DNA of 17,001 bases from a virus. Lineage: Duplodnaviria; Heunggongvirae; Uroviricota; Caudoviricetes. The notes under the pieces were generated by a model that was given only the letters and a program-made list of their open reading frames with translations, did no database searches and was not told where the DNA came from. The stretch is taken from positions 1 to 17,001 of the IMG/VR virus record IMGVR_UViG_3300028991_000008. One strand, written 5' to 3'. Of this stretch, positions 445-3,852 are shown piece by piece. Position numbers and translations under genes: made by a program. Position 1 is the stretch's first letter. The number at the start of each line of letters is the position of its first letter.

Positions 445-878
445 GAAGAGTAGCCGCGATTATCTCCGCTCTGGTTATTTGCATCATCGTCTGCCTGTCA
501 TGGGCTGTTAATCATTACCGTGATAACGCCATTACCTATAAAGAACAGCGCGATAAAGCCAGGTACATCATCGCTGACATGCAGAAGCGTCAACGTGATG
601 TAGCAGAACTTGACGCCAGATACACAAAGGAGCTTGCTGATGCTAACGCGACTATCGAAAGTCTCCGTGCTGATGTTTCTGCTGGGCGTAAGCGCCTGCA
701 AGTCGCCGCCACCTGTGCAAAGTCAACGACCGGAGCCAGCAGCATGGGCGATGGAGAAAGCCCAGGACTTACAGCAGATGCTGAACTCAATTATTACCGT
801 CTCCGAAGTGGAATCGACAAGATAACCGCGCAGGTCAACTACCTGCAGGAGTACATCAGGACGCAGTGCTTAAAATAA
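441..878 (+). CDS. Rz: Rz-like inner-membrane spanin (i-spanin)
   Basis: Translation from GTG 441 ([34 protein letters not shown]…) is close to lambda Rz (…[30 protein letters not shown]…). The start overlaps the endolysin stop as GTGA. It has an N-terminal transmembrane segment and a coiled-coil-like remainder. Confidence 0.92.
640..825 (+). CDS. Rz1: Rz1-like outer-membrane lipoprotein spanin (o-spanin), embedded in the +1 frame of Rz
   Basis: ORF nested wholly inside Rz in another frame. ATG 640 is preceded by AGGAG. The product [20 protein letters not shown]… has a signal peptide and a lipobox-like Cys, followed by a proline-rich stretch ([13 protein letters not shown]), like lambda Rz1. 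Confidence 0.85.
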
Positions 879-917: not shown

Positions 918-945
918 AATGCCTCGCAGATGAGGGGCATTTTTG
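918..945 (+). terminator. Putative Rho-independent terminator downstream of Rz/Rz1
   Basis: Imperfect GC-rich inverted repeat (tgcctc … gagg(g)gca) followed directly by TTTTT, about 40 nt after the Rz stop. Confidence 0.55.
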
Positions 946-1237
946 TACAGGTATTTCACCGCGCACCGCAGCGCACTCAACCACGTCGAACCAAACCCTT
1001 TGGAATGAGCCTTTGAGTAGTCAGTTAGTGCTGGTGAGCCTTGACGGGCTGATCTCCTATGCAGCAAAGGTTCATCTCAAAGTAAGGCGAACGCTATGAC
1101 AAACCAAGATTCTATAGACCTATCTGATCTTCGTGGAATGGTCAGTTTTCCAGACAAAAGGTAATCACCATAGTCGTATGGCTATGAATCTTGTTGCTGC
1201 AGATAAGCATTTTGTGATTGAAGTGGTCAAATCTCTC

Positions 1238-1266
1238 AAATGCAGTAAAATGCAGTGCGCTATAAT
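1238..1266 (+). promoter_or_regulatory. Candidate sigma70 promoter for the 206-aa accessory gene: consensus -10 TATAAT (1261-1266) overlapped upstream by a tandem AAATGCAGT direct repeat
   Basis: Perfect TATAAT hexamer 29 nt upstream of ATG 1295, followed by GGAGGG/AGGAGA Shine-Dalgarno sequences. No good -35 hexamer. The tandem repeat AAATGCAGT (1238-1246 and 1248-1256) occupies the -35 region. Confidence 0.4.
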
Positions 1267-1294
1267 TCAATAACGGAGGGAGTAAGGAGAAGTC

Positions 1295-1915
1295 ATGAAA
1301 GATCAAGATGTTAGGTTCGCGGTGCATCATAAGCTTTTGAAAGAATCGCATTTAGATCCAGACTGCCTTGTGGTCGATGAATTTTCCATATCCCTTGGCG
1401 CCAGTAGAGCAGACATTGCTGTAATAAATGGTGTTATACACGGGTACGAGCTCAAAAGTGAATATGACTCTTTGGAGCGTTTGCCTCTTCAAATCAAGCA
1501 TTATTCTTCTGTAATGGACAAGGTTACTCTTGTCGTAGCTGAGAAACATCTTGAGGGAGCATTAAAGTTAATCCCAGGTTGGTGGGGCGTTAAAACGGTT
1601 TCTGTTGGGCCAAAAGGCGCCATTCTTATAAAGCACATGCGTGGAGAAAAGCTTAATCGAAACCATGACACATTGATGCTCGCTCAATTGCTTTGGAAAG
1701 ATGAATGTATCGACGTACTTGAACGATGGGGCTATTCCAAAGGAATCAAAAGCAAGCCCCGATTTGAGTTATGGAATATTATTGCGGAAAATATTCCAAT
1801 AGCGAATCTCAGGCTTGAAGTCAGAACAGCCTTAAAGAAACGCGTAGGCTGGAAAGTTAAGGCTTGGCAGGATGAGTCTGCGCCAACCAATAAAGCTGTC
1901 TCACGACTAACGTAA
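1295..1915 (+). CDS. Hypothetical accessory (moron) protein, 206 aa, with a PD-(D/E)xK-like nuclease motif; candidate defence component
   Basis: ORF with strong RBS (AGGAGA) and ATG start. Motif E29 … D40(IAVINGVIHGY)E52-L-K54 fits the restriction-endonuclease-fold catalytic signature. AT-rich composition unlike the flanking phage genes. No counterpart at this position in lambda. Confidence 0.8.
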   Translation: MKDQDVRFAVHHKLLKESHLDPDCLVVDEFSISLGASRADIAVINGVIHGYELKSEYDSLERLPLQIKHYSSVMDKVTLVVAEKHLEGALKLIPGWWGVKTVSVGPKGAILIKHMRGEKLNRNHDTLMLAQLLWKDECIDVLERWGYSKGIKSKPRFELWNIIAENIPIANLRLEVRTALKKRVGWKVKAWQDESAPTNKAVSRLT

Positions 1916-2924
1916 TATGGTGCGTATGTGCAACTTTACGCCATTCTTTAGAGCCGCCAGATTTGTTAGCGCCTAATGATCTTTGGTAAATGTAATCATC
2001 CCCCCAACTAAATTTGGAGCCAAAGACTTGATACTCTGGCGAACTAACAAGGGTAGTACATAAGTTTTTAGTTTGGCCCCATCCATTTCCTTTAACTGCG
2101 GTACCTTTTACAAAGATCCATGAGGTATCGTTCGAATATCTCACTGAGACATACTGAGACATGAAGCGTGGGTCTACGCTCGTAATGGTAGAGCTAGCGG
2201 TGGGATAATCACTAAAACTTGGCGTTCTTCCATTGCTAAAATTCTGTACTACGTACATCCAAAGATCGTATTCATGGCGCGGAATATGATGAACTTGATG
2301 TTGCGGTATCCCTGCCTGTGATGCCGGGTATGCGGTTGAAGATAAAATCAAGTTTCTCCACGGAGCCTGGCCTGATAATGTGTTGACCATGCTTAATGCT
2401 TGTTGTTTTAAACTATCAGTTGCGTTTTGAATATCTCCAAAATCAATGATTACATCAATTAAACTAGGATGAATATTTAAGTGGTTAACCAGACTTGTGA
2501 ATTGGTGCCATGTCTGGGGGGTGATAGATATAGCGAGCCCATTGATTAAGTTGTGTTGAACAGCATGTATATAGTTTGTTGAATATGCGGGAGAAACAAC
2601 AGGGATAATTTCCTTACCATTTACTCTAGCATCTTGGATACACATATCTAGAGGATGATGGCGGCTCGAACCATGTTTATCTAAATATTTAACATCCAGC
2701 AAAACAGGACGATTGGCTTTCCAGGATGCCGCAAGGTTAATACCGAAGTCAGATAAGTAAGAACTCAAACTCTTCTTGTAGCATTCGTTTTCATAATCCC
2801 AGTCTATGTCTGGAATGGTAATGATCGGAGTAAAACCAGAGAGCGTAGTTTGATCTAAAAGCATCAGAGATTCATATTCAGCAGGCTTCCATTTCAGCTG
2901 TGGATAATATTGATGTTGACTCAT
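1857..2924 (-). CDS. Hypothetical accessory (moron) protein, 355 aa, unknown function; candidate defence component, convergent with the 206-aa gene
   Basis: Long minus-strand ORF with a near-perfect Shine-Dalgarno (minus strand AAGGAGTTTTAATG). AT-rich, with an AT-rich upstream region (2925-3060). Its 3' end overlaps the 3' end of the 206-aa gene by 59 nt. I recognise no motif with confidence. Confidence 0.8.
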   Translation of the reverse strand: MSQHQYYPQLKWKPAEYESLMLLDQTTLSGFTPIITIPDIDWDYENECYKKSLSSYLSDFGINLAASWKANRPVLLDVKYLDKHGSSRHHPLDMCIQDARVNGKEIIPVVSPAYSTNYIHAVQHNLINGLAISITPQTWHQFTSLVNHLNIHPSLIDVIIDFGDIQNATDSLKQQALSMVNTLSGQAPWRNLILSSTAYPASQAGIPQHQVHHIPRHEYDLWMYVVQNFSNGRTPSFSDYPTASSTITSVDPRFMSQYVSVRYSNDTSWIFVKGTAVKGNGWGQTKNLCTTLVSSPEYQVFGSKFSWGDDYIYQRSLGANKSGGSKEWRKVAHTHHITLVVRQLYWLAQTHPAKP

Positions 2925-2947
2925 TAAAACTCCTTAAAATCTTTACT

Positions 2948-2985
2948 TATTCTAAGTATAGTGTTATGGCGTAATGCCAATTGTT
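2948..2985 (-). promoter_or_regulatory. Candidate promoter region for the 355-aa gene
   Basis: On the minus strand there is a TATACT -10-like hexamer (plus 2955-2960) and a TTGGCA -35-like hexamer (plus 2975-2980), but the spacing is only 14 nt. The whole region is AT-rich. Assignment is weak. Confidence 0.25.
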
Positions 2986-3147
2986 TTTATACACTTGAAA
3001 ACATTGGGAAAAGTTGAGCTATATCTAAATTTACAAAATAGGATGTTATAGAAATCGAGGTTTCAACTAGGCATGGAACTGCAAAATTTTTAATGCCTGC
3101 ACGCGAAAGTCGTTGGCGGGTCCTTTCCGGTGATCCAGACCGTTACG

Positions 3148-3159
3148 GGGCGGCGACCT
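3148..3159 (+). other. cosN: cosN 12-nt cohesive-end sequence GGGCGGCGACCT (identical to lambda)
   Basis: Exact match to the lambda cohesive end as I recall it, in a flanking context that is also lambda-like. Confidence 0.9.
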
Positions 3160-3197
3160 CGCGGGTTTTCACTATTTATGAAAATTTTTCGGGATCC

Positions 3198-3295
3198 ATG
3201 TCCGGTTTCTCTTCAAGTTAACTACATGAAAAATATAAAAACAGGCTTTCCGTGAACCGGACATGCGCAAAAAATGGGCATGTGAACCGGACATG
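3198..3295 (+). repeat. cosB: cosB-like array of three terminase small-subunit binding repeats (core AACCGGACATG, one inverted and two direct)
   Basis: CATGTCCGGTT at 3198-3208 (inverted) and GTGAACCGGACATG at 3252-3265 and 3282-3295 (direct, 30-bp spacing). An AT-rich tract between the first and second copies could be an IHF bend site. Confidence 0.7.
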
Positions 3296-3342
3296 ACCGA
3301 TTTTGTTGTGATTGTGAGGTGAGAGTTTTTGCGAGGTGAGGA

Positions 3343-3852
3343 GTGGCTACGCAGACTGAAGTTGCCAGGCATTTAAGTCTGACCGATCGCCAGCTTCGCA
3401 GATTGCAGAAATTGCCGGGGGCCCCGATATCGAATAAGCGAGGGCAACTGGATCTGGATGCCTGGCGCGATTTTTACATATCGTATCTGAGGAGAAGTAA
3501 AAACGATGTGCCTGATGGCGATAGCGAAGACGACTATGAGGAGAAATTGCTTATTGCCAGATGGGAACTGACAGCGGAACAGGCTGTTACACAGCAGTTA
3601 AAAAATGAGGTGTCAAAAGGAAAACTTATTGACACCGGGTTCTGTATTTTTGCCCTCAGTAAGCTGGCAATGGCGTTATCCAGTACGCTTGATTCCATCC
3701 CTTTATCCATGCAGCGACAGTTTCCTGATTTAACACCGCGCCATCTTGACCATCTGAAAACCCTTATTGCGAAGGGAGCAAATCAGTGTGCGCGGGCGGG
3801 GGATAAATTACCGGATTTACTCGATGAATATATCAGAGCAACAACTGAATAA
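3343..3852 (+). CDS. nu1: Terminase small subunit (Nu1-like) with a divergent N-terminal DNA-binding domain
   Basis: GTG start after GAGGTGAGGAG. The C-terminal half (…TGFCIFALSKLAMALSSTLDSIPLSMQRQFPDLTPRHLDHLK…LPDLLDEYI) resembles lambda gpNu1. The N-terminal HTH region (EVARHLSLTDRQLRRL) does not. Confidence 0.9.
   Translation: MATQTEVARHLSLTDRQLRRLQKLPGAPISNKRGQLDLDAWRDFYISYLRRSKNDVPDGDSEDDYEEKLLIARWELTAEQAVTQQLKNEVSKGKLIDTGFCIFALSKLAMALSSTLDSIPLSMQRQFPDLTPRHLDHLKTLIAKGANQCARAGDKLPDLLDEYIRATTE

What the first reader, a model, noticed from the sequence alone, without database searches (positions are those of the whole stretch)
1295..2924. Two-gene convergent accessory cassette in the Rz-to-cos moron slot: candidate anti-phage defence or superinfection-exclusion system
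Two genes with no lambda counterpart (206 aa on the plus strand, 355 aa on the minus strand) lie between the lysis cassette and cos, where lambda carries bor. Each has its own strong Shine-Dalgarno and upstream AT-rich region. Their composition is clearly more AT-rich than the flanking phage genes, which suggests separate acquisition. This end-of-genome slot is a known place for lambdoid cargo genes, and defence systems often sit at such variable prophage hotspots. The smaller protein has a nuclease-like motif and the larger one has no motif I can recognise. I cannot match the pair to a named defence system from memory.
Basis: partly seen in the sequence, partly recalled or inferred. Interest (0 to 1): 0.85.

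Follow-up and report, generated by a model that had tools for sequence, protein, structure and literature searches.

The report
Prophage nuclease and TIM-barrel gene pair
Between the lysis genes and cos, this lambda-like prophage carries a two-gene relative of the phage P4 gop-beta-cII and PD-lambda-2 anti-phage systems with no toxin gene: a predicted DNA-cutting enzyme and a TIM-barrel partner whose gene ends overlap on opposite strands in almost every bacterium that has the pair.

Summary
Two convergent ORFs (1295-1915 +, 206 aa; 1857-2924 -, 355 aa) lie in an AT-rich block between Rz and cos, each with an AAGGAG Shine-Dalgarno. The small protein is an sce7726 / Phage_P4_cII protein with a PD-(D/E)xK nuclease fold and an intact E-D-ExK motif. 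The large one is a Pfam Beta_protein, an orphan TIM barrel, and it fails the sce7725 model. These are the beta and cII components of the validated P4 gop-beta-cII defence system, and beta is also PD-lambda-2C. This cassette has no gop, HigB or Xre-peptidase.

New here: every one of the 163 pairs found in 167 nuclease-selected loci across many phyla is convergent. In 159 the 3' ends overlap in one fixed frame. Conserved C-terminal motifs of both proteins are encoded antisense to each other, with anchor codons exactly 34 nt apart in 59 of 71 pairs. The two proteins co-evolve and are under purifying selection. The pair moves between unrelated prophage slots, integrase-flanked elements and chromosomes.

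Defence is inferred from homology and context, not shown. One natural beta knockout with an intact nuclease argues against a simple toxin-antitoxin model. Verdict: a new minimal variant of a known kind, of moderate interest.

The parts
1295..1915 (+). sce7726 / Phage_P4_cII-family gene (206 aa), a predicted PD-(D/E)xK nuclease: catalytic core at about residues 25-116, helical C-terminal domain at 126-182, disordered tail at 192-206
1857..2924 (-). Beta_protein-family gene (355 aa), a single-domain TIM barrel with no specific solved relative
1857..1915 (.). 59-nt antisense overlap of the two 3' coding ends. In this clade the ancestral dual-coded junction carries a 39-nt in-frame expansion (anchor spacing 73 nt instead of 34)
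   Evidence: no excess RNA structure here
1284..1289 (+). Shine-Dalgarno AAGGAG of the nuclease gene, 5 nt before the ATG
   Evidence: read
2930..2935 (-). Shine-Dalgarno AAGGAG (minus strand) of the beta gene, 5 nt before the ATG
   Evidence: read
1224..1251 (+). promoter-like site (TGGTCA, 16-nt spacer, TAAAAT) upstream of the nuclease gene; weak and not statistically supported
922..945 (+). terminator-like hairpin plus T-run after Rz, the left boundary of the cargo slot
3147..3158 (+). lambda-type cosN (GGGCGGCGACCT), the right boundary of the cargo slot
   Evidence: read; identification as cosN rests on my own knowledge of the lambda cos sequence

Best explanation
The cassette is the minimal form, without gop, of the beta/cII module that also forms part of the P4 gop-beta-cII and PD-lambda-2 anti-phage systems. 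It is carried as prophage cargo that most likely protects the lysogen against other phages. In the proposed mechanism the sce7726/cII-type PD-(D/E)xK nuclease is the effector that cuts DNA. The beta TIM-barrel protein is its obligate partner and either senses infection or makes or binds a small ligand or nucleic acid that gates the effector. In other lineages the same beta protein is wired to different toxic effectors: the Gop membrane protein, or HigB with an Xre-peptidase. The antisense overlap of the two 3' ends keeps the genes physically inseparable and may couple their expression through convergent transcription. Shown here: family membership, folds, conserved catalytic residues, obligate convergent pairing, dual coding, co-evolution, purifying selection and mobility. 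Inferred: the anti-phage role, which protein is effector and which is sensor, and any regulatory role of the overlap.
For: Homology to both non-gop components of P4 gop-beta-cII. That system protects against lambda and P1 (PMC9122126) and is triggered by a phage accessory gene (bioRxiv 10.1101/2023.04.06.535777). [quoted passage not shown] The nuclease has the PD-(D/E)xK fold with invariant E-D-ExK, also kept in P4 cII. Beta has an active-site-like set of conserved acidic, basic and aromatic residues across 20-30% identity. Of 167 nuclease-selected loci, 163 have beta, all 163 pairs are convergent and 159 overlap. In a set selected on neither protein, 35 of 43 betas have the nuclease. The proteins co-evolve (r 0.76, Mantel 0 of 2000). 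dN/dS is 0.03-0.08. The pair sits in a variable cargo slot next to cos, as the P4 hotspot does. It occurs in about 4% of complete E. coli genomes as two variants in two different prophage slots. Elsewhere it lies beside integrases, IS elements and some defence genes.
Against: No phenotype exists for any two-gene version. The components shown to be toxic in the related systems (Gop, PD-lambda-2B) are absent here. The PD-lambda-2 clone extends only 396 bp past the gene set on the side where beta lies, inferred from accession order, so it cannot hold an intact nuclease gene; beta can therefore work in defence without the nuclease. Eight of 43 betas lack the nuclease. E. coli RM10410 has beta broken by IS elements while the nuclease ORF is intact with all catalytic residues, so the nuclease is not simply a lethal toxin held by beta. 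Distant sce7726-like genes sit unpaired inside operons of lytic phages Mx4 and Edson, so the nuclease fold also serves phage-own functions. Beta's chemistry is unknown: structure searches give only generic TIM barrels and no domain fusions were found.
Confidence: 0.5

Rival explanations
1. Addiction or stabilisation module. The pair is a selfish toxin-antitoxin-like element, with the nuclease as toxin and beta as neutraliser or the reverse. Its overlap prevents separation and it stabilises the mobile element, without a dedicated anti-phage role.
For: Beta neutralises Gop toxicity in P4, as reported through PMC9122126. Vassallo et al. describe PD-lambda-2C as related to a P4 antitoxin. The inseparable dual-coded junction and the wide spread on mobile elements fit an addiction pair.
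Against: A natural beta disruption with an intact nuclease is viable. Eight of 43 betas exist without the nuclease. PD-lambda-2C is not needed to neutralise the toxin but is needed for defence. Many toxin-antitoxin systems also defend, so this rival overlaps the best explanation.
Confidence: 0.17
2. Restriction-modification-like system. Beta is a TIM-barrel DNA-modifying enzyme, comparable to the DNA transglycosylase DpdA, that marks self DNA. The PD-(D/E)xK nuclease cuts unmodified incoming DNA.
Against: The DpdA and TGT hits score no better than dozens of unrelated TIM barrels, and a designed barrel is the top hit. There is no sequence link to TGT or any other family. Loss of the modifier with an intact nuclease should be lethal, yet it occurs. 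Beta functions with non-nuclease partners in P4 and PD-lambda-2.
Confidence: 0.08
3. Phage-own function. The pair serves the carrying element itself, for example DNA repair or recombination, degradation of host or competitor DNA during lytic growth, or control of lysogeny, as the historical P4 name cII suggests. It is not host defence.
For: The top structural hit is an MmcB-like repair-nuclease family protein (3dnx), and one source names a homologue 'DNA repair protein MmcB-like'. Unpaired sce7726-like genes lie in early or middle operons of lytic phages Mx4 and Edson. From memory, P4 cII mutants have a clear-plaque phenotype; the paper (PMC249035) could not be read.
Against: The pair lies after a terminator-like site, outside the late operon, in a slot used for lysogenic-conversion cargo. 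It also occurs on chromosomes with no phage genes nearby. P4 gop-beta-cII is non-essential for P4 and protects against other phages.
Confidence: 0.15
4. Decaying remnant. The cassette is a gop-beta-cII or PD-lambda-2 system that lost its toxin gene and no longer functions.
For: No gop, HigB or Xre-peptidase gene is present.
Against: Both genes are intact in 30 of 30 and 28 of 30 near-identical copies, with dN/dS of 0.03-0.08. The whole enterobacterial clade and roughly half of the 77 diverse genome loci are stand-alone pairs. The stand-alone pair keeps the ancestral overlap that P4 has lost, so the two-gene form looks ancestral rather than degenerate.
Confidence: 0.03

Closest known systems
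Phage P4 gop-beta-cII (PADLOC models gop, beta, cll)
   Same: It has a Beta_protein (PF14350) gene convergent with an sce7726/Phage_P4_cII gene. The nuclease catalytic motif is conserved in P4 cII. It is non-essential cargo next to cos on a mobile element. It is validated against lambda and P1 (PMC9122126).
   Different: There is no gop: no homologue in the window or in any of 169 other loci. Identity is low (nuclease 27%, beta 22%). The nuclease here is 206 aa against 264 aa. P4 has lost the 3' overlap (27-nt gap with a terminator, anchor spacing 345 nt), whereas this cassette keeps a 59-nt overlap.
PD-lambda-2 (Vassallo et al. 2022; HigB-like A, Xre-HTH/M78-peptidase B, beta-family C)
   Same: The 355-aa protein's best PADLOC hit is PD-Lambda-2_C (4.7e-32). 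C is required for defence. Most PD-lambda-2-type loci in metagenomes (35 of 43) also carry the convergent, overlapping sce7726 gene.
   Different: There are no A or B genes here. The published system is defined as three genes without the nuclease, and the tested clone could not contain an intact one.
NCBIfam sce7725 / sce7726 pair
   Same: The small protein is a clear sce7726 family member.
   Different: The partner is not sce7725 by the model: no hit for the window protein, and 1 of 70 beta homologues hits it weakly at 1.5e-4.
MmcB-like / SPO1766 and other small PD-(D/E)xK nucleases (NucS, Can2 and Cap4 nuclease domains, type II restriction enzymes)
   Same: Same fold and catalytic E-D-ExK arrangement.
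   Different: No detectable sequence relationship to any solved structure. It has an extra helical C-terminal domain and is tied to a TIM-barrel partner.
Other cargo of the lambdoid Rz-to-cos slot (bor, iss)
   Same: Same slot, AT-rich, after the late terminator.
   Different: Unrelated proteins. bor and iss are single lipoprotein genes for serum resistance.

Membership tests
NCBIfam NF033832 sce7726 family | Whole-protein score above the curated cut-off (70 bits), full-length match | tested here: met
   184.1 bits, residues 1-183 on model positions 1-182 of 184
Pfam PF26915 Phage_P4_cII | Match to the Pfam model | tested here: inconclusive
   The model is not in the local Pfam copy (one search gave no hit). 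The 99% identical cluster representative P0034 and all 120 listed homologues carry precomputed PF26915, named Phage_P4_cII. P4 cII itself aligns at 27% identity, E 1e-18.
PD-(D/E)xK nuclease superfamily | Restriction-endonuclease-like alpha/beta core fold | tested here: met
PD-(D/E)xK nuclease superfamily | Catalytic acidic residues and the (D/E)xK lysine are conserved | tested here: met
   E29, D40, E52 and K54 are invariant in 45 sequences and kept in P4 cII
PD-(D/E)xK nuclease superfamily | Metal-dependent nuclease activity | not testable with these tools
   Needs biochemistry
Pfam PF14350 Beta_protein | Whole-protein score above the gathering threshold (27 bits), full-length match | tested here: met
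   190.2 bits, residues 6-342 on model positions 1-342 of 342. All 70 diverse partners also match.
NCBIfam NF033831 sce7725 family | Score above the curated cut-off | tested here: not met
   No hit at E up to 1 for the window protein. Only 1 of 70 beta homologues hits, at 1.5e-4.
gop-beta-cII defence system (P4; PADLOC models gop, beta, cll) | beta component present | tested here: met
   PADLOC 'beta' PDLC02985 at 4.3e-10, weak; same Pfam family as P4 beta
gop-beta-cII defence system (P4; PADLOC models gop, beta, cll) | cII component present and convergent with beta | tested here: met
   PADLOC 'cll' PDLC02989 at 5.2e-31; the orientation is the same as in P4
gop-beta-cII defence system (P4; PADLOC models gop, beta, cll) | gop component present upstream of beta | tested here: not met
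   No minus-strand ORF of 40 aa or more lies between 2925 and 3171. The one minus-strand ORF further on (3172-3372, 66 aa) spans the cos-proximal region and the start of the small-terminase ORF and was not scanned on its own. phmmer with P4 gop finds no homologue in the window or in any other locus.
gop-beta-cII defence system (P4; PADLOC models gop, beta, cll) | Protects against phage (lambda and P1 for P4) | not testable with these tools
   Needs plaque assays
PD-lambda-2 defence system | HigB-like component A | tested here: not met
   Absent from the window; present in 11 of 77 other loci
PD-lambda-2 defence system | Xre-HTH/M78-peptidase component B | tested here: not met
   Absent from the window; present tightly coupled upstream of beta in 13 of 77 loci
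PD-lambda-2 defence system | beta-family component C | tested here: met
   PDLC03984 at 4.7e-32 (covers only residues 141-344) and PDLC03983 at 2.5e-25
Type II toxin-antitoxin pair | One product is toxic alone and is neutralised by the other | tested here: inconclusive
   No expression data. A natural IS-disrupted beta with an intact nuclease and beta genes without a nuclease argue against strict mutual dependence.

The most novel reading that the evidence does not exclude
The convergent, antisense-overlapping beta/cII pair is itself an ancient, autonomous two-gene immune module: a TIM-barrel sensor or enzyme plus a PD-(D/E)xK nuclease. It is the common core onto which P4 added gop and PD-lambda-2 added HigB and an Xre-peptidase. 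On this reading, its dual-coded junction (W-R-A read against Q-L-A on the same decamer), frozen across phyla, is a functional device for inseparability or convergent-transcription control and not a historical accident. Beta would then be a new kind of TIM-barrel immune component with chemistry still to be found.
Probability: 0.35. Interest if true: 0.75.

Novelty: new variant of a known kind. Interest (0 to 1): 0.55.

Why it matters
Beta is a large orphan family: 3,709 clusters at 50% identity, all single-domain. It is required in two validated defence systems, yet its biochemical role is unknown. Three results reframe gop-beta-cII and PD-lambda-2 as elaborations of one core module. First, beta is nearly always locked to a conserved nuclease by an antisense coding overlap. 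Second, the stand-alone pair is common, present in about 4% of complete E. coli genomes. Third, most PD-lambda-2-type loci carry a fourth gene that the published description overlooks. Together these give a minimal two-gene system in which to work out what beta does. The junction is also a rare case of a deeply conserved dual-coding region in bacteria. Current detection rules, as I recall them, require gop or the HigB and Xre genes and so would miss all of these stand-alone loci.

Tried and rejected
1. Megablast of the cassette against the phage and plasmid collections found nothing.
2. Profile searches against PDB sequences found no relative of either protein.
4. The AFDB50 library was unavailable.
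5. Pfam scans of 70 beta homologues at E up to 1 showed no second family.
6. The exhaustive beta search found no domain fusions among the top 150.
7. I tested for a shared hairpin or terminator in the overlap. Mean z is about 0, the same as gene-interior controls, so this idea is rejected.
8. An Rfam scan of the whole window found nothing.
9. A search for gop homologues or conserved third genes found none in the window's clade.
10. The broad beta alignment A3 was too divergent for pattern-based locus scans, and the word-indexed profile search added few sequences. I therefore anchored the reverse co-occurrence test on the Xre-peptidase instead.
11. The primary P4 paper (Ghisotti 1990, PMC249035) is not held. 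Its content is cited only through PMC9122126 or marked as memory.
12. A quick regex for the junction motif in the independent set was badly designed, returned 0 and is not used.
13. The flank-gene scans are descriptive only, because no background rate was computed.
Full report
**Observation**

The window holds two convergent ORFs at exactly the stated coordinates: 1295-1915 on the plus strand (206 aa) and 1857-2924 on the minus strand (355 aa). Their 3' ends overlap by 59 nt. Each gene has an AAGGAG Shine-Dalgarno 5 nt before its ATG. GC falls to 0.36-0.44 across 1050-3150, against 0.50-0.56 in the flanks.

The block sits between the lysis genes and the packaging genes. To the left are the lysozyme (82-444) and Rz (426-878, with Rz1 embedded), followed by a terminator-like hairpin at 922-935. 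To the right are a lambda-type cosN at 3147-3158, a small-terminase-like ORF at 3343-3852 and the large terminase from 3767. Separate promoters are not established. One weak promoter-like site lies at 1224-1251, none lies upstream of beta, and the region has fewer such sites than shuffled sequence.

**What the proteins are**

The 206-aa protein matches NCBIfam NF033832 (sce7726 family) over its full length, at 184 bits against a cut-off of 70. It also matches PADLOC 'cll' (5e-31) and phrog_984. Its near-identical cluster carries Pfam PF26915, named Phage_P4_cII.

The 355-aa protein is a full-length Pfam Beta_protein (PF14350, 190 bits against a cut-off of 27). Its best PADLOC hit is PD-Lambda-2_C (4.7e-32), with a weak hit to P4 'beta' (4.3e-10). 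It does not meet the NCBIfam sce7725 model, and only 1 of 70 beta homologues touches that model weakly.

**Relation to known systems**

In phage P4, gop and beta are co-directional and cII is convergent on beta. P4 cII keeps the E-D-ExK motif (27% identity to the window protein), and P4 beta is 22% identical.

- gop-beta-cII protects against lambda and P1, and Gop is toxic without beta (PMC9122126).
- A phage accessory gene, orf184, triggers its cell-death activity (bioRxiv 10.1101/2023.04.06.535777).
- PD-lambda-2 is HigB-like A, Xre-peptidase B and a beta-family C. C is needed for defence but not for neutralising the toxin (PMC9519451).

The window has no gop. No minus-strand ORF of 40 aa or more lies between the beta start and position 3171, and P4 gop has no homologue in any of 170 sequences. 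It also has no HigB or Xre-peptidase gene. The cassette is therefore the bare beta/cII core. I found no paper that tests or describes a two-gene version, and the only joint mention lists both proteins under 'unknown function'.

**The pair as a unit**

I fetched 80 genome loci and 80 viral loci by similarity to the nuclease alone and searched them with iterated HMMs.

- Of 167 loci, 163 also encode a beta homologue. Two of the four exceptions are contig ends. The other two are the same contig (L013 and L125, which share length and coordinates), with 2.8 kb of room and no beta detected; I did not look into it further.
- All 163 pairs are convergent. In 159 the 3' ends overlap by 11-158 nt, and every overlap is 2 mod 3.
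- The taxa include Proteobacteria, Firmicutes, Myxococcota, Acidobacteriota, Elusimicrobiota, Gastranaerophilales and CPR lineages, plus Gordonia and Mycobacterium phages.

Next I measured the distance between the codon for the conserved nuclease Arg (R183 here) and the codon for the conserved beta His (H336 here). It is exactly 34 nt in 59 of 71 non-redundant pairs. It is 73 nt (34 + 39) in the window's clade and 345 nt in P4.

In the loci with 34-nt spacing, a conserved decamer TGGCGAGCTG reads W-R-A in the nuclease frame, and its reverse complement reads Q-L-A in the beta frame. Conserved C-terminal motifs of both proteins are therefore dual-coded. The junction shows no excess RNA structure (mean z about 0, the same as controls), so it is not a shared terminator.

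The two proteins co-evolve. Their pairwise identities correlate at Pearson 0.76, none of 2,000 Mantel permutations reached that value, and the correlation is still 0.48 among pairs with beta identity below 50%. Both genes are under purifying selection, with dN/dS of 0.03-0.08 against 77-85% identical relatives, although dS is near saturation. They are intact in 30 of 30 (nuclease) and 28 of 30 (beta) near-identical copies.

**Reverse test and accessory genes**

For a sample selected on neither protein, I anchored on the PD-lambda-2B-type Xre-peptidase.

- 44 of 75 loci with enough room have beta directly downstream.
- 35 of 43 such betas with at least 560 nt beyond the stop have the convergent, overlapping nuclease.
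- 34 of those 35 overlaps are again 2 mod 3.

So most PD-lambda-2-type loci carry a fourth gene that the published definition does not include. The published clone (ECOR42 QOYB01000002, 228989-232396; genes 229385-232009) extends only 396 bp past the gene set on the side where beta should lie, judged from accession order. That is too short for an intact nuclease gene.

Among the 77 diverse genome loci with a pair:

- 13 have the Xre-peptidase tightly coupled upstream of beta, and 11 also have HigB.
- A few have small one-TM proteins in the same position, which may be gop analogues.
- Roughly half, including the whole enterobacterial clade nearest the window, have nothing coupled.

Distant sce7726-like genes in the lytic phages Mx4 and Edson are unpaired.

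**Mobility and context**

The cassette DNA is found at 99% identity or more in 127 of 5,426 complete E. coli genomes. It is always chromosomal. [quoted passage not shown]

Only 25 genomes match the cassette together with these exact flanks. Strain 55989 has a different small terminase, so the flanks are mosaic. Related prophages fill the same slot with bor/iss plus ybcV/ybcW/ylcI, Rha, PerC, a TonB-like gene, DUF1398/AlpA or KilA-N. This confirms that the slot takes variable cargo.

A second variant, whose nuclease is 54% identical, sits in a different slot of Rac-like prophages in another 93 genomes. Elsewhere the pair lies:

- in a lysis-to-terminase slot of an HK97-type Klebsiella prophage;
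- next to integrases in two Vibrio elements;
- next to an IS element on a Psychrobacter chromosome.

A sample of 147 flanking genes from 65 loci is dominated by integrases, transposases, recombinases and satellite-type primases, with some defence genes (type I R-M, DarG, dGTPase, RmrA, mad2). This is descriptive only, because I computed no background rate.

**Mechanism**

The best-supported reading (confidence about 0.5) is a prophage-borne defence or exclusion module. The PD-(D/E)xK nuclease would be the effector, and beta would be the sensor or gating partner. Beta is the constant element that other lineages have wired to Gop or to HigB and the Xre-peptidase.

Several observations argue against a simple model in which the nuclease is a toxin and beta is its antitoxin:

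- E. coli RM10410 has beta split by IS elements, yet its nuclease ORF is intact and differs only at the non-catalytic positions P106S and D193A.
- 8 of 43 betas lack the nuclease.
- PD-lambda-2 defends without it.

An effector that needs activation fits these facts better, but that remains inference. The rivals are a pure addiction module, an R-M-like modifier plus nuclease, a function serving the phage itself, and a decaying remnant. Each is weighed in its own section of this report. The remnant idea is largely excluded by the selection and distribution data.

**Verdict**

The cassette is a new minimal variant of a known kind, not a categorically new system. What is new is the recognition that the convergent, dual-coded beta/cII pair is the conserved core shared by two named systems, together with the unexplained rigidity of its junction.

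Noticed in passing
loci L170-L272 (for example L175:4001-6807, L186:4004-6889); also L042:6001-9122: Most PD-lambda-2-type loci (HigB, Xre-peptidase, beta) carry a fourth gene: a convergent sce7726/cII-type nuclease overlapping the 3' end of beta (35 of 43 with enough flank). The published system is defined as three genes, and its clone ends 396 bp beyond the gene set on the side where beta should lie, so the nuclease was never tested with it.
   Followed up: partly
window 1850-1900, compared with L002:6001-7636 and 58 other loci: The window's clade has a 39-nt (13-codon) in-frame expansion inside the otherwise rigid 34-nt dual-coded junction. It separates the nuclease W186 codon from the beta Q-L codons. 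P4 has lost the overlap altogether (27-nt gap with a terminator).
   Followed up: partly
L005:5196-10868 (E. coli RM10410, NZ_CP042350.1): The beta gene is interrupted by IS66-family and IS2 elements, while the adjacent nuclease gene stays intact with all catalytic residues. This is a natural beta knockout.
   Followed up: partly
L167:3992-4561 (Myxococcus phage Mx4) and L168:3935-4528 (Bacillus phage Edson): Distant sce7726-like nuclease genes sit inside co-directional operons of lytic phages with no beta partner, so the nuclease family also has unpaired, probably phage-own, members.
   Followed up: partly
L056:2211-2750, L071:7602-8087, L084:3149-3649: Small proteins of 160-180 aa with one predicted transmembrane segment are tightly coupled upstream of beta in three unrelated loci. 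They may be non-homologous analogues of P4 Gop. Pasteurella phage Pmp11 (L169) has a P4-like three-gene layout.
   Followed up: no
window 610-825 (+), inside Rz (426-878): An embedded out-of-frame ORF has a lipoprotein signal (LLGVSAC). It is the expected Rz1 spanin gene nested in Rz.
   Followed up: no
window 3343-3852, compared with L004:7230-7778: The small terminase next to the cassette differs between this window (starts MATQTEVARHL) and E. coli 55989 (starts MNVNKKKLADIF). Only 25 genomes match the cassette with these flanks, against 127 for the cassette alone, so the packaging module around the cassette is mosaic.
   Followed up: partly
window 946-1294: About 350 bp of apparently non-coding sequence of intermediate GC lies between the post-Rz terminator-like hairpin and the nuclease gene. 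It holds only short ORFs (56 aa on the minus strand, 46 aa on the plus strand), has no Rfam match, and belongs to the segment that travels with the cassette from at least position 1100.
   Followed up: no
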